Source: Balanoglossus misakiensis
Lineage: Eukaryota; Animalia; Hemichordata
Direction of reading: 5' to 3'
Assembly: GCA_040954595.2 (NCBI GenBank)
Contig: CM082591.2
Location: 8,710,293 to 8,774,292 of the forward strand
Length of the DNA: 64,000 nucleotides
Shown in pieces: positions 14,613-56,454 of this stretch (position 1 is the stretch's first letter; every line of letters begins with the position of its first letter). The position numbers and the translations under genes were made by a program. Below the pieces are notes generated by a model. It was not told the DNA's origin. It was given only the letters and a program-made list of their open reading frames with translations, and made no database searches.

Positions 14613-17317
14613 TGGCGTTGCTAATCTAATGCTGATAAGCTATTCACATGATTCATGGTCCAGCAATGCCCTGTGAGCGCTGCGAGATTTCTATATTGAC
14701 CAGACTGTGGCCATTTTCAATGTAAAGCCGCGAAAAAAATGAATAGTAATCAAACTAAACTCTTTGATGTTATACCCATTTAATATCAAATCTTGTCTGT
14801 TCTGAGTTTACCATTCAAAGTGTTAGACTGCACTGTCATTGATACAGTAGTTATAATTTTGGTTATTTTTTTAATTTTCAGAAAACTTCATGACTTGTGG
14901 CAGTGCATCCATGAAGTTGAAGAAAGAAATTTTGAGAATATGGATACAGATGATCCAGGTGATTTTTCTTTTGGTGATTTTTGTTCTTTTGACAATAATG
15001 ACAATGAACAATCGTCCGAAGAAGAATCCGACAACATGGGTGAATTAAAAGGTCTACAAGATACCGATGCATTTATATATGAAGGTGCTCAAATTAATCT
15101 AGCAACAAGCATGCTTCTTGTACATACATTTGTGCAGAAACATTGCCTCACTTCTGAGGGTACCTCTGAATTGCTACAGCTTTTGCAACTTCATTGTAAA
15201 ACTGGAAACTGTTTACCTAAGACACTGTATTCCTATAAGAAATTTTTTAGTGATATGCAGCAGCCAATGATTTATCACAAGTATTGTTCATATTGTTTAC
15301 TTGGCGTTCAGACACCCGACAGTGTTAATGATAAATGTCAAAATGCAGTCTGTGGGAAAAGTTTGAACGTTGAAGGAGGTATTTCGGTCTTTGTTGAGAT
15401 CCCAATAAAAACTCAGCTTCAGTCACTTTTCAATCGGCCAGATTTTGCTGAACGTTTGCAGTGTAGATTTAAATGGGTCAAACATCAGGCAGGGGCTATT
15501 GAAGACATTTATGATGGCAAACTTTATTCAACTTTAGTTAATGAAGCCATTGTGAAAACAGAATATGATTTAACCTTTATTTTCAATACAGATGGGGCGT
15601 CACCCTTTCGAAGCTCAAAAACCAGTTTATGGCCAATTTATCTTATGATCAATGAATTAACATATTCAGAGAGAAAACGACCTGAAAACATGATCCTGGC
15701 AGGTTTATGGTTTGGCAAAAACAAACCAAAATGTCCCTGTTTTTGCGTCCCACAATTGCATCACTCAAGCATTTGGAACAAGGTGTAAAATTGAACATCC
15801 CAGGTAAGGAAGAGCAGGTGGAGTGTAAAGAGGATATTGTTGGCCACAGTTACTGATTTACCAGCCAGGGCATGCATTTGCTCCATGAACAAGTATAATG
15901 GTGAGTCATCCTGTATTAAATGCCAGCAAACAGGAAAAGTGGTGAAGGTCGGATAGGGTCAACAAGGGTCTTTCCCCCGTGTATGGACAATTTGGATGGG
16001 TCTGCCAGAATTGATGAATCAGTGCAAAATGATTCTGTAAATGTGGTTCAATTAAACAAACCTGTCAATGGCATAAAGGGTCCATCATGGTTGTCACATT
16101 TGTCATCTTTCAGTTTTGTTCGTGGTAATGTGATTGACTACCTCCATGGTGTATGTCTTGGTGTGACTAAACTTTTGCATTCACTCTGGTTTTCTACTGC
16201 ACACACAAATGAAATATTTAGTATTTCAGACAGATTTGATCTTGTCAATAAACGACTTCTTGACATATCACCACCTGATAACATGTCTTGGCTCCCCAGG
16301 TCAATGGATGATTCCAAATACTGGAAAGCATCCGAGTGGAGGAATTGGCTGTTATTCTTTGGTCCAGCTATTCTGAGTGACATATTGATGCCAGAATACT
16401 ATGCACATTTTATGTTATTTTGTGAGGCCATTTTTTTGCTGTTGAAAGAGTCCATACTGAAAGAGGATATTGCACGCAGTAGGGCACTTCTAGCTCAGTT
16501 TGTTGCCATGTTTCCGGTCATGTACAAGGAAAGTGCAATGACTCTCAATGTTCATCAGCTGATCCACCTTCCTGATGATGTTCTGTATGTTGGTCCATTG
16601 TGGTGTGTGTCTTGCTTTCCATTTGAAGATGCAAATGGATTTTTGTTGAAGTTGTTCAATGGCACACAACATATTGAGAAGCAGATAGTACATGCTGTGG
16701 CAGTCATGCAGAAGGTTCCTGAGCTTGTACAATCCACTGACAAGGACAGTGTGGCATATAAATTATACTTCAGACTATCCCAAAAAAAAAATCCAAAACA
16801 CCAAGGCCATTTGCTTGAAAATCAAATATATCTAATAGGATCGTCAAAACTGGAAAAAGAAATACCTCCTCCATACTTGGGTGCAATCAGACGAAAATGT
16901 GTGTACCAGATTGCAAAAATAATCTCTTTCAAACGAATTAAATTAAAGGGGGCAATATTTTTTTCTCAAGCATACTCACGCATGCACTTGAGAAACAGTT
17001 ATACAGTTGAATTTATGCAATCTCACTCAGCAATGTATGGTTTCATTGAACTTTTCCTTCAAGTGAAGCCAATGTGTCAGTGTGTAGGTACCTGTTCCTG
17101 TTTGACTGAAAATTTTGCTAGGGTGCATCATTTGCCAGTGGTACAGAACCACACAAGTGCTGTTTCGTATATGAAGAGAGTGAGCCAAATCACTCCAGGC
17201 AGAATAATTGCTGTGAATCTAAATGATATCAAGAGAAAATGTGTCTTTGTACATGTTAATGATTCAGATTTAGATTTTGTGTGTACAGTGCCAAATACTT
17301 TGGAGAAAGATTTACCC

Positions 17318-20300
17318 TAGGAGATAGGTGCCGTTAATCAGAATTTTTGGTGAGGAAGGTTTGAGAAGTCCATTCTATGTAAAAAATGGTGCTGATTCCA
17401 AAAAGGTCAGTCTTATTGACCCAACTCAAGACAAAATTGCCATTTTGGCCATTTTTAACCCAAAAATTGTCTTTTTTAGAAAACACTAAAAACACACTGT
17501 TTTCGTCACATTCTGAGATCTGATGACATATGATATGCTTATTCTATGTAAAATTTGGTGAATATTACGAAAAAAGTAGTCCGATTGACCCAAAACAACA
17601 CAAAATTGCCTTTTTGACCATTTTTTGCCCAAAAAAACGTCATTTTTAGAAAAAATTAAAAAACACGATTTTCTTCATAATGATTGATCTGGTATATATA
17701 TGGAAAGTCAATTCTATGTTAAAAGTGGTGACTTTAAAATATAAAGCAGTCTTTTTGACCTCAATCAATACAAAAATGCCATTTTTGGCCACTTTTTGAG
17801 GTCAAATAATGTCATTTTTACAAAAAAACTAAAAACAAATTGTGTTCTTCATATTCAGAGATCATTGGATATATGAAATGTCCATTCAATGTAAAAAATG
17901 GTGCTGATTCCAGAAATAGCAGTCTTATTGACCCTACTCAAGAAAAAATACCATTTTTGCCACTTTTTGCCCCAAAACGTCATTTTTAGAAAACACTCAA
18001 AATTTATATATTTTCTTCACTTTCGGAGATCTGATAATGTATTATATGCCAACTCATGTAAATTTGGTGATTATTCCAAAAAAGCAGATTTATTGACCCA
18101 ACCTAATGCAAAAATGCCCTTTTGGAAAGTTTTTGCCCAAAAAGGCCATTTTTAGAAAAAAAAATAAAAATAAACTTTTCTTCATAAAGCTCAGAGATCA
18201 TGTGATATATGAAATGTTCAACCTATGTAAAAAATGGTGCTGATTCCAGAAATAGCAGTCTTATTGATCCTACTCAAGTAAAAATGCCATTTTTGCCACT
18301 TTTTGCCCCAAAAACGTCATTTTCAGAAAACACTCAAAATTTATATATTTTCTTCACTTTCGGAGATCTGATAATGTATTATATGCCCACTATATGTGAA
18401 AAATTTCCAAAAAAGCAGTTTTATTGATGCCACTCAAGATAAAAGTGCCTGTTTGGCAAGTTTTTGCCCAAAAGTGTCATTTCTAGAAAATACGAAAAAT
18501 ATGCCATTTTCTTCCCATTGGTGATCTAATGATAAATAAAAGTAGGGACATTTAAAAAAAAACACACTCTTACTGACCCCACAGAGGGAAAAAAATACCA
18601 TTTTGGCCTCTTTGCTCAAAAAGGTAACTGTTAGAAAAAATAAATTCAAACTTATTCCTTCATATTCAGAGCCCTTGTGATGTATGTAAATTCGTTTTTG
18701 TTTTGTTTTGTTTTTTTGTGTGCAAAAAATATGCTGATACCAGCACAACGGTCTTATTGACAAAATTGCCATTTAGCCATCTTTTGGTCAACAATAGGCA
18801 TTTTCAGAAAACAAATATAATTGATGTTTTTGCCTTTTGTGTTCTGATGTTGTATATGCATATTTAAAACGCCATAACCATATAATATCAATTAAATTGA
18901 TGTTATTGAAAGACAGGGTTGCCACAATTTGGCACATTTAGCCCAAAATTGAACTCAACAATAAGATGATCCATGTATACGCACTGTCTACTATAAGTCG
19001 ATTATGCGTGGTGTGAAATATTTAGGTTCAGATATGCCAGCTCGGGAGAGATTGTTGAAATTTATTCTTTTCAATCTGAATACAAAATCAGAAATTAATT
19101 ATATTATAATTTATACCATGATACCTCCGTCATACTGATTGGACAGGAGTGCAACCCAACGATGCTAGAATACTCAATAGAGCACTGCTAAAACTGGCCC
19201 CTGAACTAGCACGCAGCAGGGAAAATGTGGGCTTAAACCAAATAAACATAATAAATACACTAACATTCCTTGACGTTTTAATTTGGAACTGCTGTATGGG
19301 AATATTTGGGCAATGTGCAATGTATTTTTCTTGAGTAGATCTATTTTTGGTTACAAATAGCCAAAAAGGCAATTTTGACTAGAGTGGGGCAAACCAGACT
19401 GCCGTTTTTGGAATAGTCTCCAAATTTTACACAGAATGGACTTTTCATACATGATCAGATCTCTGAATATGAAGAAAACAATTTGTCTTCAGTTTGCTTG
19501 TTTTTAATGAACATTTTTGACCAAAAAAGTGGCCGAAATTACAAATTTCAATTGAATAGGGTAAGTAAGACTTCTGTTTTTGGAACAGTAACCACGTTTC
19601 AATATAGAATGGGCTTTTATTTATAATAAGATCACCAAAAGTGAAGAAAAGAGAATGCTATTAATATATTCTTAAAAATAACAATTTTGTGCAAAACTTA
19701 GCCAAAAAGGCGATTTCATCATGGCATTTCTGGAAACAACACCTATTTTACAATAAATGTACTTTTCACACATCATAGAATCTCCAAATAAGAATCAAAC
19801 AGTTTGTTTTTAATGATTTTCGAAAAGTGGCTTTTTGGGCAAAAACTTGTCAAAAAAGAACTGTTTCCTTAAGTGGCGCCAGTAAAACTTTTATTTTTAA
19901 TTTTTTCACATAGAGTGGGTATATAATACATCATCATCTCCGAAAGTGAAGAAAATATAAAAGTTTTGGGTGTTTACTAGAAATGACACTTTTGGGCAAA
20001 AACTTGCCAAACGGGCACTTTTATCTTGAATGGCATCAATAAAACTGCTTTTTTGGACATTTTTCACATATAGTGGGCATATAATACATTATCAGATCTC
20101 CGAAAGTGAAGAAAATATATAAATTTTGAGTGTTTTCTAAAAATGACGTTTTTGGGCAAAAAGTTGCAAAAATGGTATTTTTTCTTGAGTAGGGTCAATA
20201 AGACTGCTATTTCTGGAATCAGCGCCATTTTTTTTACATAGAATGGACATTTCATATATCCAATGATCTCTGAATATGAAGAACACAATTTGTTTTTAGT

Positions 20301-20808
20301 TTTTTTGTAAAAATGACCTTTTTTCACCTCAAAATGTGGCCAAAAATGGCATTTTTGTATTGATTGAGGTCAAAAAGACTGCTTTATATTTTAAAGTCAC
20401 CACTTTTAACATAGAATTGACTTTCCATATATCACCAGATCAATCATTATGAAGAAAACCGTGTGTTGTAAATGTTTTCTAAAAATGACGTTTTTTGGGC
20501 AAAAAATGGTCAAAAAGGCAATTTTGTGTTGTTTTGGGTCAATCGGACTACTTTTTTCGTAATACTCACCAAATTTTACATAGAATAAGCATATCATATG
20601 TCATCACATCTCAGAATGTGACGAAAACAGTCTGTTTTTAGTGTTTTCTAAAAAAGACCATTTTTGGGTTAAAATTGCCAAAATGGCAATTTTGTCTTGA
20701 GTGGGGTCAATAAGACTGACTTTTTTGAAATTAGCACCATTTTTTACATAGAATGGACTTCTCAAACCTTCCTCACCAAAAATTCTGATAAACGGCACCT
20801 ATCTCCTG
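17318..20808. mobile_element. Fold-back element family B, copy 2
   Basis: taggagataggtgccg...cggcacctatctcctg ends; ~171-bp units (anchors ~17371, 17542, 17712, 17884, 18053, 18223); central spacer homologous to 11800-12290. Confidence 0.88.
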
Positions 20809-20889
20809 GACTAATTAGATTTTAATATAGGGTTATTTCACAAAATATTGCCATGTACCGGTATGGACTCTGTATGTGGGGTATTGGAT

Positions 20890-21389
20890 CACGGGCGTCA
20901 TGGAACAATAAAGTGTATAGATATTAATAAACTTATCATAAACGCGACGTCCTCAATGAACAAAGAATAAAATATTTCATGGGTTTGTTTGGTGTGGACG
21001 AGAAATGCACTAAAGCTAGGTCAGTGTTAACTTTATGTGCAAAACCACACCGTACGCGTACCTCTTTAGGGGATAGGCACCGTGTGTGTATACGATCTCG
21101 TCTTCAGCAGTAAAGGCGATGTCTACGCATGCGTGCGCGCCCGCAAGTGATCTGTGTACGAACGCGTCTGTCCTGGCTAGCAACGGAGTCGTACGATCGT
21201 CTGCTCCATCACTTCCGCGTTCGGCGGCGCTAGTGCGTTCGCTCGCATATTTTGCGAGTCCAGATGTAGCTAGGCCGTTCGTGAGTGTAGTTCTCGTTCA
21301 CATAAAAAAAGGAATAACATAATTTATTGTGTGTTCGTTTAGACCTATGCTAAATTATCCATACACTTTATTGTTCCATGACGCCCGTG
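20890..21389. mobile_element. 500-bp MITE with 29-bp TIRs and 7-bp TSD (P-like)
   Basis: TIR cacgggcgtcatggaacaataaagtgtat / atacactttattgttccatgacgcccgtg, flanked by direct attggat on both sides. Confidence 0.88.
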
Positions 21390-21819
21390 ATTGGATTTGC
21401 CTACATTAAAGCTTCTCCAACACACTACATACATGGAGTCCTCATTCATAGCCCTATATTACATCTGACTTGATGCAATTGTTTTTGCCAGAATTCAGAG
21501 TACAATTGTTTGACTTGTATACTTACATTCATGATAATGTATAATGTATATTTTGAATGAGTCTGTCACAATTTTCAGTCAGGAGTTCCTGTTTGTAGTA
21601 TTGTTGATACATTGTACTTGGTGAGACATTATAGACTGCCATTTAATTGATTATGTGATTAATAAATAAATCAATTGAATTGAAAATTGTTTTCCTTGTC
21701 ATCTTTTCATATAGCTGTGCGTGCCCACCGAGTATGCCTGCAGTGCCCTATATTTTATATAAATACAAACCCATGCCCTCAACAATACATGTAATCTAAA
21801 TTAATCACTCTTCTTTTTC

Positions 21820-22293
21820 TACTTATGTGAATTCCATAAGAAAAAAACATTATATTCATTAGTCTCATGCAATGCATCATATGAAAAAGATTCTGATTAG
21901 AAATAGTTTGAAGACTTTGAACAAATATTTTTTTTTATCAGAATCTTATAAGAATTTTATTTACTTATAAGAATACTATAAGAATTGTGTTTGCTTAGTA
22001 TTATGTCAAATGTTTGAGCATTGAAAATTTTTACACAATTTTTTTTTCAGATTCTTATAAGAATCAAATTTTCTTATAAGAATCTAATAAGTTTTGTTAA
22101 AAATCTGAACTGAACTTAGAATGTTATAAGAAGTCAACTGATGAATTCTTATACATTTCTCATATGATTCCTTTTAATTTCTTATATGATTCCTTTTCTT
22201 ATAAGTATCTTATATGAATCTTATAAACTTATAAGAATCTTATAAGAATCTTATAAGATTCTTATAAGATCTTATAAGAAGAAACCGTACGGG
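21820..22293. repeat. EnSpm-type subterminal repeat array (palindromic cttataag) and terminus ...ccgtacggg
   Basis: More than 10 copies of (tt)cttataag(aa), ending in a CCC-type terminus downstream of the EnSpm transposase. Confidence 0.65.
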
Positions 22294-23340
22294 TGACATA
22301 CTAATTGAAAGCATTCAACACCCTACGAGGATTCGTGCTATCCTTGTTAGTCTCAGCCAGGTGAAGTCCGGAAATGGGGACTTATAGATTGGGCTCTGCC
22401 TGTGCGTGCATCCGTGCATGTGTCGTTTCACCGACATGCCTGGGTCGATTTTTTTCAAACTTGACACAGGTATGCAACATGTCGCTAAAACGATGAAGTA
22501 GAGGTAAATGAAGGAAAGCAGCGTATCACCAGATCAGATTGTAATCAGATTGATGAGTATCCTGATGTAGGGAATGATTAGACAACACAACATACTGTGT
22601 TCTGTGCCGACTATACTCTTTATTTGTGTCTGACTGACTTTTCGATGGGAGTAAAAGATGTACAGTTTATGTAAGAAAGTATAAAATGAGAAAAATCCTT
22701 TCAATAGAAACAGTGGTGAAAAGAAAGACAAATATCATACTAAAATATTGGCAGCATTTATCGTAATGAGAATGATTTGTCAGTTTTGTAAATGCAAATG
22801 TTTCCACTTCTATTCAATCAAGTATTGTATAAGTAAGATTAGCATTCTTGATAAATATGTTATTCCTTTTTTTTTCATTTTAGTAACGCAAGACAATCCC
22901 TATAAAGTAACGCCATCACTGTCATTCTGGTCCCCCTGGATAGCTCCATGCTCCAGAGGAAGCCAAATTTACAACACAGAATACAAGAAGTGCCCTGGGC
23001 GCTCAACATCTACACATGAGGAAGACTTGGATGATGAGAAAGAACTGACAGAAGAGCTGTTGCTATAGAGTTGCTCTGTGAATCAAAGGTATCACATTGA
23101 AGTGAAAGAATTGCCATAGTTCAGTGTTTTCATTGCACTTGATTTCTTTTAATGTACACATGCCTCAGGCCTAAAAAGCATGAGTTTAATTTTATTTTTG
23201 ATTTCTGTATCCATCTACCGGTATGTCTCTCTGTCACCATCACTGCTTTGCTCCTCCACTGTACTGTTAGCACGCTGAATGTAGTCAATCTGGAGTAAAA
23301 ATGGATGATATCGTGATAATAGTACTTACTTACGCGTTAA

Positions 23341-23526
23341 AGGTATACAGTCACCTACAATTTATATACGCCCATATATGGCTGAAATTGCCTTTTTGAG
23401 GGTTCTAAAGAATGTATGGTGGCGCTCTTTTTTCTGTGTGTGCCACCCACTGAAAATCAGTGATTGGCTAGATCTCAAGTTTACCATAGTAACTTTAGCT
23501 AAATTTCCATAGGTGACCGTATACCT
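23341..23526. mobile_element. Kolobok-type MITE, TTAA TSD
   Basis: ttaa|aggtatacagtcacct ... aggtgaccgtatacct|ttaa. Confidence 0.85.
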
Positions 23527-24029
23527 TTAATAGGACCATAACCCTAAACATAAGCACACTAATGGTAACAATATGAGTCTCCCTGAAGGGCTGTGCATCT
23601 ATTAATTCCTACATTTAATTCACAAATCATTTTGTTCAACAATATATGGGCCTTTCTATCTATGTCATGCCCTGGAGAGACTCTATTTTATGAATGAGCA
23701 CTTACCTGTTCACTAAAATTTGAACAAACCGGTGTTATTCAAAAGTTTGCAAAATAACAATGTACTTCTCAACTCAATTAATTTCTCATCGGCTTTTAGC
23801 TGTTTCAACAGGATTAAGGAATGGACAGTAATGCAAATGTTCAATATAATTTATGAATAAACTGAAATGTGTATTAACTTATGTTCTTGTTCTGCTACCT
23901 CAAGAATGCTGTCTGTTCACAGTAAGTAGTGTTGTTATATTAGTGTAAACTTAGATTTTGCTTTTAAAACAAATGCACTTGAGAGTAGGACAGTCTCCAT
24001 GATTTCCAAGATCCAACCGATGCAAATGA

Positions 24030-25178
24030 TACTTTTTGGGCAAAAACTTGCCAAAAAGGCACTTTTATCTTGAACACATCAATAAAACTGCCTTTTGGGA
24101 TTTTTTTCACATAGAGTGGGCGTATAATACATTATCAGATCTCCGAAAGTGAAGAAAATATAAACGATTTGAGTGCTTCTAGAAATGACGTTTTTGGACA
24201 AAAAGTGTCAAAAATGGCAATTTTGTCTTGAGTATGGTTATTAAGACTGCCATTTCTGGAATCAGCACCATTTTTTACACAGAATGAACATTTCATATAT
24301 CACATGATCTCTAAACTTTATGAAGAAAAGTTTGTTTTTATTTTTTTTTCTAATAATGGCCTTTTAGCCAAAAACTTGCAAAAAAGCCATTTTTGCATTA
24401 TGCAGGGTCAATAAATCTGCTTTTTTGGAATAGTCGCCAAATTTTGCATAGGGTGAGCATATACATGTAATACATTATCAGATCTCCGAAAGTGAAGAAA
24501 ACATATAAGTTTTGAGTGTTTTCTAAAAAGGACGTTGTGGGGCAAAAAGTGGCAAAAATGGCATTTTTTCATTGAGTAGGGTCAATAAGATTGCTATTTC
24601 TGGAATCGGCACCATTTTTTTTACATAGAATGAATATTTTATATATCAAATGATATCTGAATATGAAGTTTTTTTGTAAAAATGACCTTTTTTGACCTCA
24701 AAAAGTGGCAAAAATGGCATTTTTGTATTGATTGAGGTCAAGAAGACTGCTTTATTTTTTTAAGTCACCACTTTTAACATAGAATTGATTTTCCATATAT
24801 CACCAGATAAATCATTATGAAGAAAACCGTGTGTTTTAATTTTTTTCTGAAAATGACGTTTTTTGGGGCAAAAAATGGTTAAAAAGGCAATTTTGTGTTG
24901 TTTTGGGTCAATTGAACTACTTTTATCGTAATATTCACCAAATTTTACATAGAATAAGCATATCATATGTCATCAGATCTCAGAATGTGACGAAAACAAA
25001 GTGTTTTTAGTGTTTTCTGAAAATGACCTGTTTTGGGTTAAAAATGGCCAAAATGGCAATTTTGTCTTGAGTGGGGTCAATAAGACTGACTTTTTTGGAA
25101 TCAGCACCATTTGTTACATAGAATGGACTTCTCAAACCTTCCTTACCAAAAATTCTGATTAACGGCACCTATCTCCTA
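24030..25178 (-). mobile_element. Fold-back family B, copy 3 (right arm only)
   Basis: Same ~170-bp repeats, ending in aacggcacctatctccta. Confidence 0.85.
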
Positions 25179-27620
25179 GCGTAGTAAGAACACCAAGTTC
25201 AACTACTATTACTAATATCTAAATATAGTGTACAGTTCATGGGTCTATAAAGACTGTGACAGCGTTTTACTATTACATTTCAGGTAAAGCGGAGACCATG
25301 TCAGACTGTTTGAAGGCTTTGTTTACCATCTATTTATTCTGCCACAAAATCAAGGTATTAAAGGCTGATGGTGTAGATTTTTCTAAAGCATCTTTATGTC
25401 CTTGAATCCCATACTGGAATTGTAGAACATGCTAGAGAGGACCACTGTCATGTGCTGGAGAGAATAGCTCCCTGTGTCCGTGCTGGTACGATACCCAACA
25501 TTGATGTCAGAAAATTTGTTGAAACACTCCAGGTGTGTAAATATATGTACATTCATTTTCTTTAATAAACATTGACAAACTCATGTAATTTGAATCTTGC
25601 ACTTTGTGACAGACCTTCCCTGTGATGCAATGCATGTCAAATGCAATGACCCATTTTGTTGTTTAAGGCAATTATCATATTTCCATTCAGTGGGGTTGGC
25701 CATAAGCAGTGAATAAAACTTAAAAGGGAGAATTACTAATTTTGACATTTTCATTTGTTTCCTAATATTTTCAAAATCCTTTATGCAATGCAGCAACCGC
25801 ACTTTGAATACAGAACAAACAAATAATACACTGGAACTGCACATTTTTGTTTAACTACTCAGAAATTAAATTCTGTGTCTATTTTGTGATAGGACTTACA
25901 TACACGGGTATGAAGAAAAAGGCAGATTTGTCAAACTTGTCAGCAACTGGCACAAAGCAGCAGATGGCAGAGAGATTACTAAAGAAGAAAGGAGGAAGTT
26001 CAAAAAAGATATGTTGAACTCCATCTTGGTTGACTGGATGCCCTGGCATCATTACAATCCTGATTACAGTACTATTGATCCCCTTAGGTATGTCAAAAAG
26101 CCAGCAAGCCAGCAAGTCAATAATGACCGTCTTTTATTCTGCAAATATCCTCTCTTTTCTAAACAGGTCTGATTTTATGTGCTGGTTTCATAGTCCTCGT
26201 TACCAAACTGTTACTGGGTTGATATTTCAGAGAAGTGCTTTTGCTTGCATAAATGCTTAGTGGTTTATAACTACATGTAATTCTTTACAGACCAATCAAG
26301 GGTTTATGTGGGTTGACGAGATTATAGTTGCTTTGATTGCCAACATTGAAAGTGTAGAATGGAGACGTCGTCAAGGAGGGCTGCCAGAACATCCTAAAGC
26401 TAGTACGACAGATGATGTGGAGGGATTTATTTCTCTCATTCATTCAATGCTGGGCCCAGTCTTTTCACCGCAAGACTTTCCGTGATAATTACAAGTAAGC
26501 AATTACCTAAATTAGTGATATATGTTGACCAGTCATCAGTCACAATGCCGACCTGAACACATCATGTTACTGGCTATAATGAATATAATTACCAAAAAAC
26601 ACATTCATATGCAAATGACTGGTGCCATGACGGTTATGTCCAACTATCACAAAACTTGTCACATTACTGCTCAGGGCACTGTATACTATTATTACATTCA
26701 TTTATGACAGGGGGTCATTTTAATGCACTCTCCTATACATATTATTTTTTCCAGAAAAATATGCAATGAATTTACGAAAAGAGTGGACCCAGATTAACCA
26801 TATTACTACTGGACCGTGAGTGATACACACTTCAACTTAGGACCATTGCCTTCATTCAACCAACCCTCAGGTGAAGTGGAAAGGCTTGATAGAGTCCAGA
26901 TTCGAAGGAGATCCGATCCTGCTGTTTTTCATGCCAACAGGGCATCAGTGCCACAAAGAGGGTCGCTAACAGTGCGGGCACAATTTTTTCAGGCCCCAGA
27001 ATGTCTACCCCCAATTGTGGCTGCCTTAAATAGGTTTTCACTTTGCGCTAGGGGGTCAAATCACATTGCATTCTGGTCGAAAAGTCGACAACCCACTGTA
27101 GTAAGAGATAGAAGAAATGATATGTTTACTGTATTTCATGACTTCCTTGGGTCAAACATGTTTGTCTTTGTAGTTACCATTTTAAACCCATTACACTTTT
27201 TTAACATTTGGTTATTTTTTATGTTAACAAGTTTCAGAATGACCCATCATCACTTTAGCTTATAAACTCCTTTTCCTTAAACATGGCAAAAATCAGCCAT
27301 CTTAATAATGTTTTATTTACCCATTAATTAAAGGGTACATATGATAGGTAAAAATACAAATGGTGGGTAAATATGGAGTCAGGAAATAGCCACAGCTAGT
27401 CTAGCCTGTACTCCTACAATATAGCTTGCTTGGTTACAGAAAAAAAAAAGATAATGTTGAGGGAACACTTGAAGCGTGATTCAAGTACGATCTCACTACA
27501 ACAGTGTAAAGTTATCCATTGCAAATGGTAATGGAAAAAAGAAAGGAACAACAATCACAAACAAACAAACAAAACAGCATCATACTACATCAAGAAAATT
27601 ACAAATTCATTTGTACTGGT

Positions 27621-31412: not shown

Positions 31413-34400
31413 CGTGAATGAGCACAGGTGTTCGATTACACAACGTGGGTTTTAAACAAAGGAGCAGAATTCCAGTACTATTTTGCATGCATAATGAGAT
31501 CGACTGGAACTAACGGCAGGATTCTGTGTGCTGGCTTCGACTTGATAGATAAAAATCAAAACTCACTTTTGACAAAAAGTTACAGCAATCTTCCGCAAAA
31601 ATCCGTTGCCAGCTAATAGTCCACGCCTTCAAAAATCGACACATTGACCGGTGATGAAAAAAAGTTCCAACTAAGGAGTGATTTTTGGCTCTTGAAATTG
31701 TGTCGACCATGTGAGATTTCTATCACCCACCTAGGCAGCCAAAAACCTTTTTAATGTCGGGAGAATTCCATGACCTGGGTGCATGTCCTTATTTAACAGA
31801 ATCGCTCTGACCAAAGCAAAAAAATTTCAGGTCATAATTTTTTCTATTTCAGATTATAATTTTCAGATATTGGTCTCTTCAAAAACACCAGTTGATGATC
31901 AATTTATTGTGTACTGTTATTTTTGAAAGAAAAATCAACATTCAGGATCAGTTGAAATGCTTTGACAATTTCTCCCTTTTTCTATTACATCCATATCCTG
32001 TCATGTGCTGACTCGACTGTAGTATTTTAAATGTGGCAAAATACATGAATGAACTGTTAAAATAAACGGTTTTACCATATACTTTCCCCAGTTAATGGCA
32101 GCAAATATGTGTCACAATTTTAAACAGCATATTTTATAAATAAATGCCAGTACTAGTCAATGCTCTCTGGTCCATCATTGAGGCAGTAGTATCTAGCTGT
32201 CTCCTCTTGTCATGATAGTCTTTTTCCTGTCTCACTTTGATTTTCTTTTACAGTACAAAATTCCTTATAAGTTTCTGTAACCCAAACTATAGAAGACTAA
32301 TGGTTATTCTACACAGCGAACAAAGTGGCAATTTATGCTAATTATCCAAGCTACTGTTAAATGTGTACATGGTGTGTAAATGGCAAGGTCTGGTTCACTG
32401 AGCTGTAGGTAACACACATGTAATGCTAGGCACCTCAACGAGCATTAATCATATAAAGTAAACTTCACACATTTTGTATTTTGTTCAAATCATTTAATTA
32501 GGCAAAACCAAAATAATATATACATGTACATTTATAAGTTAAATTGATCCAGTATTGGACCCAAAATGGGTACAAAATATATACACATAGTCGCATAATG
32601 ATGACCCTCTTCTTGTCAAGTTGGCGGCATTGTAGGTGAGGGAAGGACACATTTTTCATGAGTAGAACAAAATGTGTTCACAAACCATTCACACAAGGTC
32701 TACTTTGTTAATGGACTGGACATTTCCTTGAATGTGCCAAAAGTAATTTGAAAATGCACCCTTTTAAAAAATTCCCAACTCCTCCAGAAGTGTTTTTGAA
32801 TTGAGTCTTAGAGCACTTTTTTATTTTTCATGAAAACAAATTCCTCCCACATGCTGTGTATTTTGGTTATAGTTATCTTCACGTAAAACCCAACTAACAT
32901 CCATGGTGTCCTAAACCTGATGTGATCAACAGATACTGAAAGTTTGCCTTCCGTTAAGGGTTTGTGAACATATTTTGTTAATTCACTTGGTATAAAGCCA
33001 ATATGTTGCCATCCATTGCCCACATCCAAGTCGACTGCAATTGCATTCTTGTATATTTTGTTTGTAAGATCTGGCCATAAGCATGCTTTAACAGGAAGCT
33101 TCTGATCATAGAGTCTAATGTAGCCACGCTCAAGAATTTCCTGTCTTCTCCTGTCATGACATACCCCTAACACCTTGAATGGCACACTGTGTTCAATATT
33201 ATTGAATGGCACACTGTGTTCAATATTATTGGGATCATCTTCATCATCAATGTTATTAATTCTTGCTATACTAGCAGTGTCACTACTAACACTGGAAATA
33301 GACATTAACTCAAGAGAATCAGCTAGTGAATTTGTGTTGTCATTTACAATAGTCCACTTCCACCACATTAAAAAGGATCTACCATTGATATTAACAAGAC
33401 AACAATCACTCTTGGAACACTTTATCAGTGATGGCATGTTAAAAAATTGAGTCTTTCATCTGATAGTTTAATTACACCATGTGACATGTCAGCAAATGGA
33501 GAAGACTGGGGTGTGATGATCTTCACAATACGTAAACTAAGTGTAATAACAGGACAGCATGGCAATGTCCAATCCAAAGCGTCTTCTAGTCCCGTTACTT
33601 TGATTTCAAGATTCACAGACTGAAAAAGAGTGTACAGAATACATGCTGTATTAAGGCTTCATTACATATAACTTTGGGCTATTTAATTGTCCCTTTCTGT
33701 TCAGTATATCAACTGTAGTTTCTTGTTCAACACTCCACAATAGAAAGAAAGACAAAATAGCTAGCAAATATGTGTGAAATTTACAAAGTCAAAAACTTCC
33801 TGTATTAATTGATCAATAGACAAAATATGGCTGACTCTATTACAAATGCATGTGAGGTATGACCATGAGGTATGACCAAGAAAACTTGCACGAGTAAGGT
33901 AACATCTAATGCAAGATGAGAGGTGGACTAGCATTCATCAAAGTGTTTACATGATTATAATGACTCATTTTTCAATGCTGAATAAAATATCCAAATTATC
34001 TGACCTTTTATCTTACCTCTGTAAATATGGACGAAGGGCTGTAGTTATTAATGACGGATAAATCATTAACTGAATTATTCCCAACAGCAAGGCCAAGAGC
34101 GGTTTCTTTACTCAACATTCTGTAGAGCATGGTGTTAAGAACAAATATTTGGCAAATGATGATACAGTGTAGGTATTAGTGAATCACATATACAAACATT
34201 TAATTCACAGATCAAAGCAATTTTTAACATTGAAGTATGTTCAAGACCACTGGTTCAATTGTGATACAGAATATAATAAGATAGTATTAATTCATAGATA
34301 TACAATTAAAGGATACCTTCCAATGTAAGGCATGTCTTTGTACGATGCACCTTCATCATAGGTGTTGAGGGGAACTATGCAGTGCGTGTCCAAATCGAAG

Positions 34401-35489
34401 ACCAAATGATGACTGAAAATGTTCACTGCCTTTTGAAAATTCTGTACATAATCCACGGGTACTTTTATTTGCATATTTAGATATAGCCCCATCCTAGGAA
34501 TAGCCTGAACAAAAGCATACATATTACCAATATGCAAATGAGTATAACATATACCTTAAAATGTTGTATTTCTTAAGAATCTCAATACAGAGATGTACAA
34601 AATTTAATATACTGATTTTAAACTGCATATACACTTGCAGGTGTCATCGGTACGACTGCTAGTGTAACATGATTAAGGATTCTGTCACATGAATTTACAA
34701 ATTTTTGTGTAACACAATACAGTATAATATCACATTTACCTGGAAAATATCCTTATCTTTAATTTGTTTAACAAATTCCACTGATCTCTTAATTCCAACT
34801 CCAGGAATTGATGGAAGATAGTCGCACCATGCTAACACACTTATATAAATAAACTTCAGGAATGACCATTTCTCCATTTCAAAGCACTCCTGAAGTTTAC
34901 TGGCATCAACCATGGGTGCTGTTCCAAACTTGCTATCTGTTTTGGTGAAAACCTGTAATCATATTTGGAAAACAATATGACTCAGAAAATACTAGTACAT
35001 CCCATACAAAACTCACATGCTTATTAACCAGTTTATAAGCCATTGTTTAGCATGCTACATGCTTATTTGTGTATGTATGTATGGGGTGCAGTTCTTAGCA
35101 GTTGCACCCCATACATGTCTATTTTCTAGAGTCTACATGCTTATATCTGAGATGATTAGACTTCAACTAGCATGTACATGTTATGGGCCAAGCAGTCTAC
35201 ATGCTAATGATGACTGGGGTGGTAAAAAAATAACCATGTATGAAGCATGTACACCATTTAGCATGTGATTCTGACAATAGCTAAAGTTCACACGCATGTA
35301 TCTAGCATTGACTGAAGTCCACAAGCAAGTAATTACGGGGCATGTACATAATTTAAGTAGTTGATTAATCCACGTGGCCTCATGACCTCTACTTCCGGGT
35401 CAAACAAAAAATAGCGTCAAGGACACTGTGGTCCCATTTGAGGATTATGCGGAAACAGTGACACACCAGAATAAAAATTACAGGTGACA

Positions 35490-36250
35490 TTGCAAGCAGA
35501 TCTGCAAGCAGCAATATCGGGCCCAAGCTAACATAGCACATAGCAACATAGCAATAAGCATATCTGCTCTGGATGCCAAGATATGGAAAAGTAGGTCAAA
35601 GGTCACCTGAGGTTATGCAAAATTTGGGCAAGAAATTTTGACCCTATACTGGTCCATGTTCAACAAAAACCAAACCTATAGCCCTATTGGTTCGCCTGGA
35701 ATTAGGTATGCACATAATTAATGAGATATACAGGTGTCACAGGTGACCCCAAATTTTGGCTTTTCAATTTTAGTCCCAACCCTCCAAACGCCAAGTCTGT
35801 ACCTGCTCTGGATGCCAAGATATGATAAAGTAGGTCAAAGGTCACCTGAGGTCATGTAAAATTTGGGCAAGAAATTTTGACCCTATACTGGTCCATGTTC
35901 AACAAAAACCAAACCTATAGCCCTATTGGTTAGCCTGGAATTAGGTATGCACATAATAAATGAGATATGCAGGTGTCACAGGTGACCAATATTTTGGCTT
36001 TTCAATTTTAGTCCTAACCCTCCAAACGCCAAGTCTGTACCTGCTCTGGATGCCGAGATATAGGAAAGTAGGTCAAAGGTCACCTGAGGTCACCCAAAAT
36101 TTTGGCAAGAAATTTTGACCCTATACTGGTCCATGTCCCACAAGAACGAAACCTCTAGCCCTATTAGTTAGCCCGGAATTAGGTATGCACATAATTAATG
36201 TGTTAAGCAGGTGTTACAGGTGAGCCCAAAATTTTGCCTTTTATTTTGGC
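35490..36250 (-). mobile_element. Helentron-type non-autonomous element with three ~239-bp tandem repeats
   Basis: Units start at 35564, 35803 and 36041. The end motif gcaagcagc...gggcccaagc is the reverse of the 39075-39105 HINE end. Confidence 0.75.
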
Positions 36251-36399
36251 CCCATTGTGCTCACTGACCAATAGACTTCACTGTACAGGACTATTGCACT
36301 GACCAGAATTCCACGATAAGACGTGGACATAGCTTAACCATAGAGGTATAAGTAAAGTTATAAATTTAATAAAAAGACTAAAAAATTCATAAAAAATAA

Positions 36400-36762
36400 A
36401 ACATCGATGATATTAACTTAACACTTACAGGTCGATGTGAGGTTGACATATGGTACATGCATACCAATTTTTAAAGCAATCTGACGAGTAGTTGTTGACT
36501 TTCAGAGTTTTGATAAATTTCACATTTTTCCAGCTAATTTGCATATTTTTGGGCCTGGCAACTTCGTTTGGACAAACTCCCATCTACAGCCCAGCCTACA
36601 CTACACACCAAATATTGAGGTGATACGCGCAGCGGTTTTCAAGTTTTTGATGTGGACGGACATACAGACATACATCCATCCATACATCCATACATACATA
36701 CAGACGCAACTGATCCCATAAGGTCCCATGGTATATATGCCTATACCAATGGGACCTAAAAA
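36400..36762 (-). mobile_element. HINE-like element with (CATA/CATC)n; related copy at 47281-47520 (+)
   Basis: aggtcccatggtata...tataccaatgggacct hairpin plus microsatellite; the reverse complement resembles 47283-47520. Confidence 0.65.
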
Positions 36763-37087
36763 TACAGTGTGCGCATGCGCAAACTCCAACCCCCATATTT
36801 AACGGTTTTCTGGTTGACAAGTTGGATTGTACGTCGCGTACATCTTGGAGTACAATGTCGCAGCCCAGTAAGCTATTGTTTATCCTCCACTTGTACATTT
36901 GGAAGGGCGAGTTTACACTTTTATCGATGCTGCAGTTTGGATGAATTGACTGTTCAAAATAGATAAATGCAGAGCATTGCTTTAGTTAGACTTTGTTGTT
37001 AGCGCAGGACGTTCATGGACATGGTCAGTGTATATAGGTCAGTGTTACCATATTGGCCAACTGTGCTAAGAGTGTGAGTGTACGATC

Positions 37088-39110
37088 ATTAGGGGACCAA
37101 GCACCCTCAGGCGCTTGGTCCCCTTCTGTTATTGCTGGAGTTTTTCTTCTTTCTTCTTGAGTCGTTTTTTTGCTCCCGTTTTTCTCTGAAATTCCGGCAC
37201 CTGCGCCTATGAAGTTTGGCACGGTGATTGGGGCCCATGAGTACTGGTGCACCTGCCCTTTGAATTTGTAATTAGTCACGTGACTTGGTGGCTATAATCG
37301 AGCGAAATTTTCAAATTGACCTAATTTGCACGTTAATGGGGGAATGTACATTCTTTTCGCGATTTTTGTAGACCATGTGGCCAAAATCCCCTGTGCCAAA
37401 TTTCAAGGTCCTAGGCCACGTCGATTTTGAGAAGAAGATTTTTGTAATATTTTTCGCATTTTTGGTGGGCTGAGGACGGACACTGGGGCATCGGACTTTG
37501 ACCGTCATTACGTAATGTTGTGGAGATCTCATTAGCAGGCTACTCACTTCTGGCGGGTTGCAGTAGTCCTTGGAAAATCGGCTGAAATACGTAAACAGAC
37601 CAGTGATTATATTCCACAGAATGAATTTTGGGATAACACATTATCGGAGTTCAGGCTGTGTTAGGGCGTTTTATTGAATTACGCTGAGTTTGTTAGCTGT
37701 TGCTGTTCAAATGTTTCTATCCAGACCCGGCTACACTGGTTAACATTCAATGTAATGCGGCAGCGGACTTTGACCCTCAGTCGCTAATGTGGCCGAAATA
37801 CGTCAGCAGACCAATGATTTTCTTGCACGAAGGGAGTATGGTACCAGCAATAATCAGAGATCAGGCTTCGTTGCCGTTCAACAGTTCCTACTTCAGTCGT
37901 GACGTTGCAACTGAACGTTCAGTATGGGGGTTGGCCCGCAGGTGGCCGTGGGGGTTATCAGGTCGCCCGTAATGGCACGCAGCTTCATGCAGCTGTATGG
38001 GACCAAAATAATACGCCCGATTCGGGGTTCACCTGTGAAACCTGCGTAACTCAATTATGTGCATGCGTAATTGTGGGGTCAATGAAAGGGATGCTAGTGT
38101 GGTATTTGTTGCAAATGGATCAATATGAAGTCCGATTTTCCTGTCAAGTTATGGGCGATCTTATGTGACATTTCACCTACTTTTGCTTAGTGAGCATCCA
38201 CAGCAGATGCATGCAGTTTTGGCGTGGGGGGGGGGGGGGGGCATATACGGATGGGACCATAAAGATATACCAAAGGCGGGGTCACCTGTTGCACCTGCCT
38301 AAGTCATTGATTTTGTACATTTAATTGGACACTAACCAACAGGGCAATATGTGTGGTTTTTGTTCCACAGGGACGAATGTAAGTGTCAGTTTGTTTTTGC
38401 CCAAATGTATAAGGTGATTTGGATGACCTCTGTCATACAGTGCCATATCTCAGCCCGTTGTACAAGTGCAGCTTTGGTATTCGGAGCGAAACTATCATGA
38501 AATGCCAAATACAGGGGGATACCTGCGACACCTGCTTGATTCATGTATTACGTGCATACCTAATGGTAGGCAAAGTGAAAGGGCTGCAAATGTAGGATTT
38601 GTTGCACATGACATAAACAGGAATGACAATTTTTTGTCAAATTTTTGGGTGACCTGCTTTCCATATGTTAGCATGCACATCATATATAGCCAGGTGTTTG
38701 GAGGGGTAGGGTAGGACCCTCTGCGTCATGAAATGCTAAATTCCTGGGGCTACCTGTAACTTACTTGCGTAACTCATTATTATGGCCATATCTAATTTGA
38801 CAAACCCAAACAGCGAGGATTTTCCGTTGTCTTGAATATGAACCACATAAGAATCCTAATTTTTGGCCCAATTTTTGGGTACCCTCAGCTGACCTTTGAA
38901 GTAACTGAAGTACTTACAACGTAGAAGTTCACCTTTGGTTGTTGTGTTTGTACTTGTAAGACATCCATTTCGGGTGGTTGCCTACTTCCTCATATCTCCA
39001 CATCCAGAGCAAATACAGCCTACGCATTTGAATGGTACAACCCTGAATGGAGTCTAATGGTTATTAACTCTATGCTTGGGCCCTTTCAACGCTGCTTGCA
39101 GCTTTATTTT
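37088..39110 (+). mobile_element. Helentron-type non-autonomous element
   Basis: 5' hairpin ggggaccaagc...gcttggtcccc, CTT-rich tract, degenerate internal repeats, 3' gcttgggccc...gctgcttgcagc end. Confidence 0.7.
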
Positions 39111-41269
39111 AATTTAAATTTGCTGCAAATTTACGTGGACCTCACAGCAATTGGTTAAATGCTATGTGGCTCGCTCCTGACGGGGTTAACAGTCTGGCTG
39201 AACATATTTAGTGCATGACATTAAATTTTAGCCTTTGAGTCGCTTTGTGTCCACACACACAAAGTTTAAGCATAGACCATGACAAACTTGAATTCTGCGT
39301 GAAAGAATATAGCTTTTGTTTTGTCTCTACTCAATTGAAATTGAGAAAATAAAGCATCTCAAGTTGATCTTAATTGGTTTGTCTTGCTTCACATTTTTGA
39401 GGTAAGCCTTACTATTTTTTAAGTGAAAACTCATGCCAGAAGAAGTGCTGCGTGAAGTGTTATTGTTGTCACTATTACTTCTGAACTTTGTGGGATAACC
39501 AAGCAATTTATAAATACATAACATAACAATGCACTGTAATATTTAGGCTGCATAATTTTGCATGTCGATTATATATGCATGTACATGCATGGCAGTTATC
39601 AAGCATGTACATCATGCTTAAGCATGTACATGTATGAAGCAAGATCAACTATGTATATGCAAATATTTTTCCAGCAATGTACAGGTTTATGATTAAGCAT
39701 GTATATGAAAATGTTCTTAGCATGTACATGCTTATTGTACAATCTCATTTAAATAATTCAGCCTATATACATGTCACATGCTTGTAAAGTCCATAGATGA
39801 TTGCAGAAAGCATGTACAGTCTTAACGTACAAATTACCAGTCAAGTAACATGTACAGGCTAATACCTGACCACTAAATACATGCTTAAAACAGGCATGCG
39901 AGTTTTGTAAGGGATGACATACATGTACTGTCTTTGTAAGCAAAATCAAAAAATGTTTAGACTAATGAAACTTACTTTAGCTGCTCCATAAACAATGGCA
40001 TTAGAGTCTTCTGTCATGACGCCATAAACTTTGCCACACATCGACAAACAGACCATCTGGGCATCTGCCTCATATGGTGCAACTATGTAGTCAATTTTAT
40101 GTTCACCAAGACTCTATAAAAACAAATAAATGCGACAAAAATTCTCTGTGAAAATGTGTAGCAATACTGTGATTTTAACAATGATACACTTATTGTTGAA
40201 AGTTAGCCATTTATTTTTTATAAAACAACTAGTTGTTCAAAGCAATATGAAATATTTTTACCTTGATTACTTTTTGTACCATTGCTTCGGTGATTTTGGC
40301 ACTGGCAAGAAAATGTCTCTGGGAGTCGCAGTAGTTTTTCTGCTCCCACATTCTGTAATGAAAGTTCACGTTGCCTGGGCAAAGCATAGAAATCAGTTAG
40401 TGAATTGACATAAGACACCATACTTAAGAAATATATACAACAGCAGCAAATCAGTGAAATTGGACATTTTGATGCAAAAACGAATCTCTTTACCTTTTAC
40501 GTTTGTTATTTTTGATTTGCTTGGGGGAATATGATTGTCCAGCAAACACAACCAGTGGCTTGATTCTGAGGTTTTTAAATTTCAGAACCACCTTTAGGAA
40601 ATATTTTATGTATCTAGTGTAACCAAAAAATGTTAAAAAATAACATTGTACATAAAAAAATAATGACATAATAACAAGCTACAAAATTACCAGACAGTGA
40701 TTCTTGACATGAGGAAAACCCTCTGCAGTAACTCTGTCACTAGACAGTGATTAACATAACAATGACAAAGTGTGGCTTATATTTGCACTCCAATAAACAA
40801 CCAACATCTTTCTATACAATTTCTGTGTTGACCAAGACGTTCACATTTCAGTTATAATCTCCCAAATGGCGGTTTTCCACCAACGTTTGGGGGATTACTA
40901 CGTACAAAGCTGGCCTGGTTTGGCATGATTAACAATGGTCCCACATAATAAATTAAAAGCAAATCATAATGACAAATGTATAAACAAATAAAAATTTAAT
41001 TCAATAAAGATATATTAAAAATATAATTGTACCTGTCTGTTGGCAAGTTCATTGCTAGCTCTCTTGCACAGCCACAGGAACCTTTATGCAAAAGCATGGA
41101 AGCGTCCACTGCCAGTGTCTTTCCACTAAATTTCTGCAGCTGCACATGACCTGTTGCCGTATTTATTTGGCTGTATAGGTTCTTAATCCCCATCGCGTAT
41201 TTCGACCTATGTACACAAGTTATTATTATTAATATTATTACTACTCCTATAGGTGGTGTTGTGGTTGAT

Positions 41270-41510
41270 TTGCAATGTGGAAGCCTCAGGCCAAGCAAGA
41301 TGCCACAAGGTATACTGGCAGTCATTTCTATGGAAAATGCATGATGCTTGAGTTGAAGCATCGACATGAATATCAGTGATGGCCTGGGGTCAATGAATTT
41401 GTGTGTACCATTGAAGTATGTCAGGTAATTCAGCCACCATTCTATGTCAAGTTGGAAGTCACAGGAAAGAAGCACTTTGTGGGATGGAGACGGAGATGTG
41501 AAGCAAGTTC
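41270..41510 (-). mobile_element. DIRS/Ngaro retroelement RT-RNaseH fragment
   Basis: KVLLSCDFQLDIEWWLNYLTYFNG resembles the DL.WW..FL...NG motif of tyrosine-recombinase retroelements. Confidence 0.6.
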
Positions 41511-42227
41511 TGGCTGGTGTTGTCAGGAAGTAAGACAGAGGTGTAGCTGTTGTTGGAGTGTTAGTGTTCATGCTTGTAGCATATGAGAATGGACTTACTT
41601 TTAAATGCGTTGTTACAGGTACACTGGCTTGTTCAGCTTCGGAGATTGTACAAACAGTAGGTAGTTGAGCTTGCAGCAGTTAGATACACGCAGACCTGGA
41701 TACACACACCATAGACCCCAGAGACTCTTCGGTCTATGCACAGACATACACGGCAGGCATACAAGGGAAGCGCATATAACCGGAAGTGAACGGGCTGATG
41801 TCTCGCAAGAGAATGAAAGCCTGAGGCTGATATGGTTACGATTCACCGCTAGAGGGCGTTTGCGTTGCAGACACCGCCTGCACGTACCCATACTTCCAAC
41901 AGAAATCAATTTTCAAGAGTACTGCTTCCACACGATTGCATGATCTACCATATCTGTGCAATACAAAGCAAAGAGAGAGCATTTGTTAAATATTAAACTA
42001 CTTTGGTTGGTTAATTTGAGAACTTTTAGACAAATATGTGGCACAAAGAGAAATATTGAAACACATAAAATTATTTAGACTAATATTAACAACAATAATT
42101 GGATAAAACTAAATTATTCTGCAGTTTTTATATTTGAGTTAGTATAAACTATTTATCAGAGTCATTTTATTTTTATTGATACTAGTAAGTAGAATTTAAA
42201 ATTTCAAAATGTTGATATAGCTACATA

Positions 42228-56199: not shown

Positions 56200-56389
56200 G
56201 CGTAATCATCATTATCATCACCAACTTCATCATCATCATCATCATCATCAATCACAATCATCATCATCATCATCATCAATCACAATCATCATCATCATCA
56301 CAATCATCATCATCATCACTTACCTCCATACATACCTACAAACCAACAAACAAACAAACAAACCTTCTTCCATCATCATCATCTTCATC

Positions 56390-56425
<36 letters not shown>

Positions 56426-56454
56426 TTCATCATTACAATCATCATCATCATCAT

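What the first reader, a model, noticed from the sequence alone, without database searches (positions are those of the whole stretch)
32808..41193. Spliced EXO1 nuclease domain fused to a HIRAN-like domain
Seen: seven GT-AG exons (161, 120, 113, 138, 213, 188, 103 nt) encode the whole XPG-N/XPG-I/H3TH core of Exonuclease 1. A phase-0 junction (ttttcag|TCTGTG at 33619) then leads into a ~270-aa exon unrelated to EXO1's normal long disordered tail. That exon ends in a HIRAN-like motif set (FKVLG...RQEIL...PD.TN..KNAIAV...IGFIP.EL). Known: HIRAN binds ssDNA 3'-OH ends (HLTF/Rad5), and EXO1 resects 5' ends. Inference: a chimeric end-processing enzyme that grips the 3' end while resecting the 5' strand. 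The intron-rich structure implies DNA-level capture of the host EXO1 locus rather than retroposition. The ORF track shows only disconnected pieces of this gene.
Basis: partly seen in the sequence, partly recalled or inferred. Interest (0 to 1): 0.9.

Follow-up and report, generated by a model that had tools for sequence, protein, structure and literature searches.

The report
Jumping gene carrying a DNA-resection enzyme
This is a broken copy of a gene that joins the DNA-chewing enzyme Exonuclease 1 to two predicted single-strand-gripping domains; it sits beside a likely transposase gene here and in other marine-animal DNA, so it likely belongs to a jumping element that would process its own DNA breaks.

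Summary
The EXO1 exons, the HIRAN domain and the 34017|33619 junction are real. This copy is broken: two frameshifts, D78A, D173N, and Tyr at the HIRAN 3'-OH Asp. The same fusion occurs in Ptychodera, Saccoglossus, Glandiceps, Branchiostoma and the coral Desmophyllum, full-length in several, and as a complete spliced ORF in L005. The middle domain is a predicted SSB-like OB fold. The gene lies tail-to-tail with a P/THAP9-like transposase gene in this window and in 19 of 42 related loci, with CAG-starting inverted ends flanking the pair. Best reading: the accessory gene of a two-gene cut-and-paste transposon. It likely grips 3' overhangs and resects the 5' strand so that gap repair copies the element back; this step is untested. 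No target-site duplication was seen. I found no description in the papers searched (Repbase not searchable), and the scan had not noted it elsewhere.

The parts
41033..41193 (-). EXO1-OB-HIRAN exon 1 (161 nt; ATG, XPG_N)
   Evidence: Pfam XPG_N E 4.9e-10; 74% identical to P. flava P0003
40494..40613 (-). exon 2 (120 nt; catalytic D78 reads Ala)
40262..40374 (-). exon 3 (113 nt; 11 nt short near 40350, frameshift)
   Evidence: 124 nt in L007; an X2 contig is 11 letters longer over 40237-40737
39976..40113 (-). exon 4 (138 nt; XPG_I; D173 reads Asn)
   Evidence: Pfam XPG_I E 9.8e-13; X1/X2 contigs read Asp there
34953..39975 (-). intron 4, 5023 nt, swollen by high-copy repeats
34740..34952 (-). 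exon 5 (213 nt; H3TH region; G223 reads Trp)
34317..34504 (-). exon 6 (188 nt)
34017..34119 (-). exon 7 (103 nt; end of the EXO1 core)
   Evidence: joined to 33619 in an X3 contig
33356..33619 (-). last exon, first part: predicted SSB/PriB-like OB fold, with a frameshift at 33441-33447
   Evidence: model of paralog P0068 residues 40-135 matches PriB at Z 8.9, rmsd 3.1, 85 aligned; homology to window
33195..33355 (-). acidic low-confidence linker; 27-nt tandem duplication at 33175-33231, absent from X3
32808..33194 (-). HIRAN domain and stop codon; the HLTF-D94 equivalent reads Tyr in the window
25244..27022 (+). 3' half of the partner P/THAP9-like transposase gene, tail-to-tail with the EXO1 fusion; has a frameshift and a stop; 5' half not found in the window
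   Evidence: 37-59% identical to partner-gene pieces of L003/L006/L007/L012/L017/L021; profile hits only at 25268-27019; ESM Atlas PF21789
27621..31451 (-). LINE (ORF1 plus endonuclease-RT ORF2) lying between the two genes; passenger insertion
41851..41880 (-). candidate terminal inverted repeat on the EXO1 side, 687 nt upstream of the ATG
   Evidence: first 10 bases equal the L028/L040 terminus; only match in 56 kb on both strands; 10 of 20000 shuffles of the upstream 1 kb; no partner end in the window

Best explanation
The window holds a broken copy of a spliced gene that fuses an Exonuclease 1 core to a predicted OB fold and a HIRAN domain, lying tail-to-tail with remnants of a likely P/THAP9-type transposase gene, and it is likely the accessory gene of a two-gene cut-and-paste DNA transposon. 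Shown: the fusion, its splicing, its breakage here, open copies in other animals, the linkage to the partner gene, and inverted ends in related loci. Inferred (about 0.85): the pair is one transposon that captured host EXO1 with its introns early in animal evolution. Inferred mechanism (about 0.5): the transposase would cut with a stagger, as Drosophila P does (17-nt 3' overhangs). HIRAN would cap the 3'-OH, the OB fold would hold the single strand, and the nuclease would resect the 5' strand at the emptied donor site. That would favour homologous gap repair, which copies the element back from the sister chromatid, so cut-and-paste gains a copy.
For: Full-length fusion proteins: P. flava P0003, 635 aa; Glandiceps P0228 and B. 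belcheri P0116/P0225/P0226. Partial ones: Saccoglossus P0002, Desmophyllum P0107, B. floridae P0096. L005 is a 593-aa open ORF and the spliced form of L004, 99-100% identical in four blocks. P. flava has three subfamilies on several large contigs. Fused cores split from 10 canonical EXO1 at 98/95, and Glandiceps joins Branchiostoma (94/94) rather than other acorn worms. Catalytic residues are kept in 7 of 8 other fused rows where covered; P0116 has D173N, its cluster mate P0225 has Asp. The HIRAN Asn and Asp equal to HLTF N91 and D94 are each kept in 92 of 97 rows; D94 binds the 3'-OH (PMC5773155 passage). The partner gene lies tail-to-tail in 19 of 42 loci (4 of them supplied the queries), 15 of 23 with 1 kb or more downstream, 7 of 12 DNA clusters, and 0 in another orientation. 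Five contigs hold EXO1 exons, HIRAN and transposase together (L002, L003, L007, L011, L013). The partner piece scores 0.94-0.95 to PF21789 clusters. Inverted ends: 35 of 35 for L005 versus L003, 40 of 43 for L028 versus L040, 34 of 41 for L007 versus L012. P excision leaves 17-nt 3' overhangs and SDSA repairs the gap (bioRxiv 2022.05.24.493293 passages).
Against: No contig holds both ends, so no target-site duplication was seen. The window has only one candidate end (10 bases) and only the 3' half of the transposase. The transposase has no Pfam or PDB hit; its P-type call rests on the Atlas (PF21789 on 17-33% of cluster members, recognition score 1854, below the 2300 mark) and on recalled motifs. 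8 of 23 loci with 1 kb or more downstream lack the transposase. 25 of 42 show no EXO1 exons upstream, including L026 and L041 with 8.6 and 10 kb, and some unnamed proteins look like stand-alone OB-HIRAN genes. The OB match (Z 8.9) is only a little above the background range of 7-8. The Y93-equivalent aromatic is variable, Tyr or Phe in 40 of 97. The X3 contig over the HIRAN exon has its own stop at 33120, and X3 is not on record as RNA. No canonical EXO1 from cnidarians, amphioxus or acorn worms was in the tree. No activity was tested.
Confidence: 0.7

Rival explanations
1. Same transposon, but the accessory nuclease works on the element's own ends or the insertion intermediate (trimming overhangs or flaps during integration), not on donor-site repair.
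For: EXO1 also has flap-endonuclease activity (recalled). TSD length in Academ lineages is linked to their helicase or nuclease (PMC10045372 passage). All the linkage evidence fits equally.
Against: HIRAN protects a 3'-OH end while EXO1 removes the 5' strand; this pairing suits resection better than trimming a 3' overhang (inference).
Confidence: 0.25
2. A host DNA-repair paralog (EXO1 with OB and HIRAN), kept by the host, whose link to transposases is a relic or chance.
For: Open, spliced copies with catalytic residues in distant animals; dN/dS about 0.3-0.4 between divergent copies.
Against: Fixed tail-to-tail linkage in 19 of 42 loci and none otherwise. Inverted ends lie 109-200 nt upstream of the start of the EXO1 match in L005, L007 and L028. 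There are many broken or internally deleted copies, several subfamilies in one species, and a tree that does not follow species.
Confidence: 0.1
3. The window's allele is really intact and the breaks are assembly errors.
For: Contigs of sample S1 lack several lesions: +11 letters over exons 2-3 (X2), one gap near the T-run (X3), Asp at D173 and at the HIRAN site. One break lies in a homopolymer.
Against: The lesions include a clean 11-nt loss, a perfect 27-nt duplication and several substitutions at invariant residues. The partner transposase is also broken and halved. S1 differs by about 1% throughout, so it is another allele or copy, and it has its own stop.
Confidence: 0.1
4. This is simply the single-copy host EXO1 next to an unrelated HIRAN ORF.
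For: The exon layout matches what I recall of metazoan EXO1; no whole genome was held to find the host gene.
Against: Exact junction contig; the same fusion in at least six named species; fused cores separate from canonical EXO1.
Confidence: 0.02

Closest known systems
Metazoan Exonuclease 1 (XPG/FEN1 family; PDB 5uzv, 3qea)
   Same: Whole catalytic core, residues 1-346, E 7.6e-77 for P0003; catalytic residues kept in intact copies.
   Different: The long tail is replaced by OB + acidic linker + HIRAN; multi-copy; a separate branch from the canonical EXO1 rows.
HIRAN domain of HLTF/Rad5 and bacterial HIRAN proteins
   Same: Fold (Z 11.2 to 3k2y, 10.0 to HLTF, 7.4 to Rad5; Foldseek E 3.6e-4); N91 and D94 equivalents conserved.
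   Different: Fused to a nuclease, not a SWI/SNF translocase with RING; the Y93 position is variable.
P-element/THAP9 superfamily DNA transposons
   Same: Partner piece resembles TNP-like_RNaseH_C clusters; DxxH and acidic motifs (family motif recalled); inverted ends starting CA (P termini recalled).
   Different: No Pfam P-element hit; no THAP domain seen in the pieces tested; a second convergent gene, which P elements lack as far as I recall.
Transposons with accessory nucleases: AcademX (XPG) and ISL2EU (YqaJ)
   Same: A cut-and-paste element that encodes an extra nuclease (AcademX nuclease: PMC10045372 passage; XPG identity and ISL2EU recalled).
   Different: Here the nuclease is an intron-bearing EXO1 in its own gene with OB and HIRAN, and the transposase looks P-like. 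In AcademX the XPG domain is, as I recall, part of the transposase protein.

Membership tests
EXO1 (XPG/FEN1 nucleases) | XPG_N + XPG_I + H3TH core closest to EXO1 | tested here: met
EXO1 (XPG/FEN1 nucleases) | Intact acidic active site (D30, D78, E150, D152, D171, D173, D225; roles recalled) | tested here: not met
   Window has D78A and D173N; all seven kept in P0003, P0074, P0228 and L005
Canonical host EXO1 ortholog | Long C-terminal tail and placement among canonical EXO1 | tested here: not met
   Tail replaced; fused versus canonical split at 98/95, with canonical rows only from vertebrates and arthropods
Canonical host EXO1 ortholog | Intron positions shared with metazoan EXO1 | not testable with these tools
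   No genomic canonical EXO1 was available; exon sizes 161/120/124/138 are shared with fused locus L007; the match to human EXO1 is recalled only
HIRAN domain | HIRAN fold | tested here: met
   Paralog P0068 model, pLDDT 84.8; top Foldseek and VIA hits are HIRAN domains; 37% identical to the window ORF
HIRAN domain | 3'-OH pocket Asp (HLTF D94) | tested here: met
   Met for the family, 92 of 97 rows; the window copy itself has Tyr, X3 has Asp
HIRAN domain | Binding of 3'-OH single-stranded DNA | not testable with these tools
   needs an assay
SSB/PriB-type OB fold | OB barrel | tested here: inconclusive
   Z 8.9, rmsd 3.1, 85 aligned to PriB; nearly all rows for residues 40-135 are OB folds, but Z is near background and the domain was not folded alone
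Cut-and-paste DNA transposon | Terminal inverted repeats flanking the genes | tested here: met
   Three end pairs across contigs of related loci; only one candidate end in the window
Cut-and-paste DNA transposon | Target-site duplication | tested here: inconclusive
   No contig with both ends; no convincing TIR+TSD pair spanning the window element
P/THAP9 superfamily | P-type RNase-H-like DDE transposase | tested here: inconclusive
   Atlas PF21789 at 0.94-0.95; no Pfam or PDB hit
P/THAP9 superfamily | N-terminal THAP domain and 7-8 bp TSD (recalled) | tested here: inconclusive
   No THAP hit in the L012/L006 5' pieces tested; gene not fully reconstructed; TSD unseen
AcademX | XPG domain within the transposase protein (recalled) | tested here: not met
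   Nuclease and transposase are separate genes on opposite strands; the Academ paper itself was not held

The most novel reading that the evidence does not exclude
An undescribed, ancient lineage of animal cut-and-paste transposons, with a deeply diverged P-like transposase, captured the host resection enzyme EXO1 and rebuilt it as a one-chain nuclease + SSB + 3'-end cap that steers repair of its own excision break into copying the element back.
Probability: 0.4. Interest if true: 0.85.

Novelty: new variant of a known kind. Interest (0 to 1): 0.7.

Why it matters
Cut-and-paste transposons can gain copies when the host repairs the emptied site from a sister copy; elements are assumed to rely on the host for that. 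An element that carries its own EXO1 with built-in single-strand and 3'-end binding would show a transposon taking control of repair-pathway choice, and makes that question testable with intact copies from P. flava, Glandiceps, amphioxus or L005. It also flags many 'exonuclease 1-like' gene models in marine invertebrates as likely transposon genes, and offers a compact natural resection enzyme.

Tried and rejected
No whole genome was held, so copy number, the host EXO1 and the other element end could not be searched. A single-sequence fold of the window ORF failed (pLDDT 36), so the fold comes from paralog P0068 with 97 rows. No RNA holder was listed. An alignment search for long fused proteins found none among 4366 candidates, although such proteins exist, so it is a weak negative. 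A viral origin got no support: no relatives in viral contigs. Alternative acceptors in intron 7 do not rescue the HIRAN frame. The TIR+TSD scan across the window gave only low-complexity or chance pairs. My first linkage count was inflated by non-coding self-hits and was redone with exon pieces only. I had inferred an exon 2|3 junction in X3 from depth; one search showed that piece is unspliced exon 2 plus intron 1. An X2 joint 33623-34067 and the roughly two-fold summed depth over the last exon hint at a second copy but were not resolved, and such depth is no copy number. Paper searches (listings and abstract starts only) showed no title on this fusion or element; 'hiran' also matches author names, and Repbase and subscription journals are not searched. 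The AcademH paper was not held. No complex prediction was run.
Full report
1. Observation. The seven exons have the stated lengths and GT-AG ends, and the acceptor at 33619 exists. Exons 1, 2 and 4 hit Pfam XPG_N/XPG_I, and the ORF 33455-32811 hits HIRAN weakly (E 0.0036). The model as written is not open. The joined exons stop at codon 135 because exon 3 has 113 nt where locus L007 has 124. The last exon reads 64 codons, then changes frame at 33441-33447. Against EXO1 numbering, D78 is Ala, D173 is Asn and G223 is Trp. The HIRAN residue matching HLTF D94 is Tyr. The window copy is therefore most likely dead.

2. The fusion is real. One contig of run X3 joins 34017 to 33619 with exact removal of the 397-nt intron. 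X3 is not on record as RNA, so this is a spliced form of uncertain kind. Contigs of the same sample lack several window lesions: 11 more letters over 40237-40737, Asp at D173 and at the HIRAN site, and no 27-nt duplication. The X3 contig over the last exon has a stop of its own at 33120, so different copies or alleles are broken in different places.

3. The family. The last ORF finds Ptychodera flava (77%) and Saccoglossus (62%) proteins, the latter with XPG_I. P. flava XP_070556421 is a 635-aa fusion whose first 346 residues match human EXO1 structures at E 7.6e-77. Two more P. flava subfamilies lie on other contigs, many of them partial. The HMMER scan found 186 clusters at E up to 0.001. 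Of 25 proteins I scanned with Pfam, four had both XPG and HIRAN. Named fused forms come from Branchiostoma floridae, B. belcheri, Desmophyllum pertusum and Glandiceps talaboti. In a 19-row tree the 9 fused cores are one side of a branch against 10 canonical EXO1 (98/95), and Glandiceps pairs with Branchiostoma (94/94). The tree is unrooted, has long branches, and lacks canonical EXO1 from these phyla. The window's closest row is P. flava at 78%, so the host is probably an acorn worm (inference).

4. Domains. An AlphaFold model of paralog P0068 (97-row alignment, pLDDT 84.8; 37% identical to the window ORF) has two beta-rich domains joined by a low-confidence linker. The last domain is HIRAN (Foldseek top hit HLTF, E 3.6e-4; VIA Z 11.2 and 10.0; profile hit to HLTF E 7e-4; Atlas 0.94). 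The middle domain matches PriB/SSB OB folds (Z 8.9, rmsd 3.1, 85 aligned), which is modest evidence. The Asn and Asp matching HLTF N91 and D94 are each kept in 92 of 97 rows; the Y93 position varies. PMC5773155 (one passage read) states that D94 recognises the 3'-OH.

5. Context. A metagenome scan gave 42 loci, probably from cnidarian hosts, since L005 groups with Desmophyllum at 100/99. EXO1 exons lie upstream in 17 of 42. L005 is a complete 593-aa ORF and the spliced form of L004. One and the same other gene lies tail-to-tail in 19 of 42 loci (4 of which supplied the queries), 15 of 23 with at least 1 kb downstream, 7 of 12 DNA clusters, and never in another orientation. Its 3' half lies in the window at 25244-27022, also tail-to-tail, with a LINE in between. 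It has no Pfam or PDB hit. The Atlas places a 222-aa piece with TNP-like_RNaseH_C (THAP9/P-type) clusters at 0.94-0.95, with a below-threshold recognition score. Its DxxH and acidic motifs fit P-type transposases by my recall. Sequence just upstream of the EXO1 start is the reverse complement of sequence beyond the transposase's 5' end in three pairs of loci (35/35, 40/43, 34/41), all beginning CAG. The window has a matching 10-base start at 41880, unique in 56 kb and seen in 10 of 20000 shuffles, but no partner end. No target-site duplication could be read.

6. Mechanism. Shown: a spliced EXO1-core gene with predicted OB and HIRAN domains, linked to a transposase-like gene between inverted ends. 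Inferred: it is the element's accessory gene, captured as DNA with introns (exon sizes 161/120/124/138 are shared between L007 and this copy apart from the deletion). Inferred further: Drosophila P excision leaves 17-nt 3' overhangs and the gap can be repaired by SDSA (bioRxiv 2022.05.24.493293, passages read). If this transposase cuts alike, HIRAN would cap the 3'-OH, the OB fold would coat the strand and EXO1 would resect the 5' strand, favouring repair that restores the element. The main rival is action on the element's ends or the insertion site. dN/dS is about 0.3-0.4 between divergent copies and 0.7 between two close ones, consistent with selection at the family level.

7. Known systems and novelty. 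It works like transposons with accessory nucleases (AcademX, PMC10045372 passage; ISL2EU recalled) but differs in nuclease, architecture and transposase. Membership in the P superfamily is not established. Seven paper searches (listings and abstract starts only) showed no description. Repbase is not covered and may already name the element. This scan's earlier notes gave nothing by sequence or place and one analog by words, a fungal element with a FEN1-type nuclease and Fanzor (not checked).

8. Verdict. A real feature, broken in this window, belonging to what is likely an undescribed two-gene DNA transposon lineage of marine invertebrates. New variant of a known kind; interest 0.7.

Noticed in passing
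window 1-3994: Element with YqaJ/alkaline-exonuclease ORFs (454-1527, +) and a THAP-HTH-DDE_Tnp_4 transposase (1761-3422, -) between near-perfect long inverted repeats (1-487 and 3537-3994); looks like a young ISL2EU-type transposon (name recalled).
   Followed up: partly
window 14784-17320: Two ORFs with weak DUF1258 and DUF4218 hits, probably a broken CACTA/EnSpm-type transposase (family call recalled).
   Followed up: no
window 9631-14296, 17313-25183: Nested foldback-like elements with 99% 693-nt inverted arms and 168-170-bp internal tandem units.
   Followed up: no
window 8465-9577: 3' end of a LINE ORF2 (zf-RVT, E 4.6e-6).
   Followed up: no
window 41200-41600: Short frames that resemble a DIRS-type RT/RNase H remnant by recall; no Pfam hit.
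   Followed up: partly
window 56205-63997: About 7.8 kb degenerate ATC triplet array with a recurring longer spacer and extreme GC skew.
   Followed up: no
unnamed proteins P0137, P0190, P0117, P0181: OB-HIRAN ORFs with their own Met and an acidic N-terminus, possibly stand-alone genes without EXO1; 37 of 97 rows have a 'FKC' subtype of the HIRAN start.
   Followed up: no
L003, L028, L036, L040: Apparently internally deleted copies of the element that keep a terminus and gene ends, like non-autonomous derivatives.
   Followed up: partly
window 33528-33623: A divergent contig variant in X1/X2 and an X2 joint 33623-34067 suggest a second related copy in sample S1.
   Followed up: no
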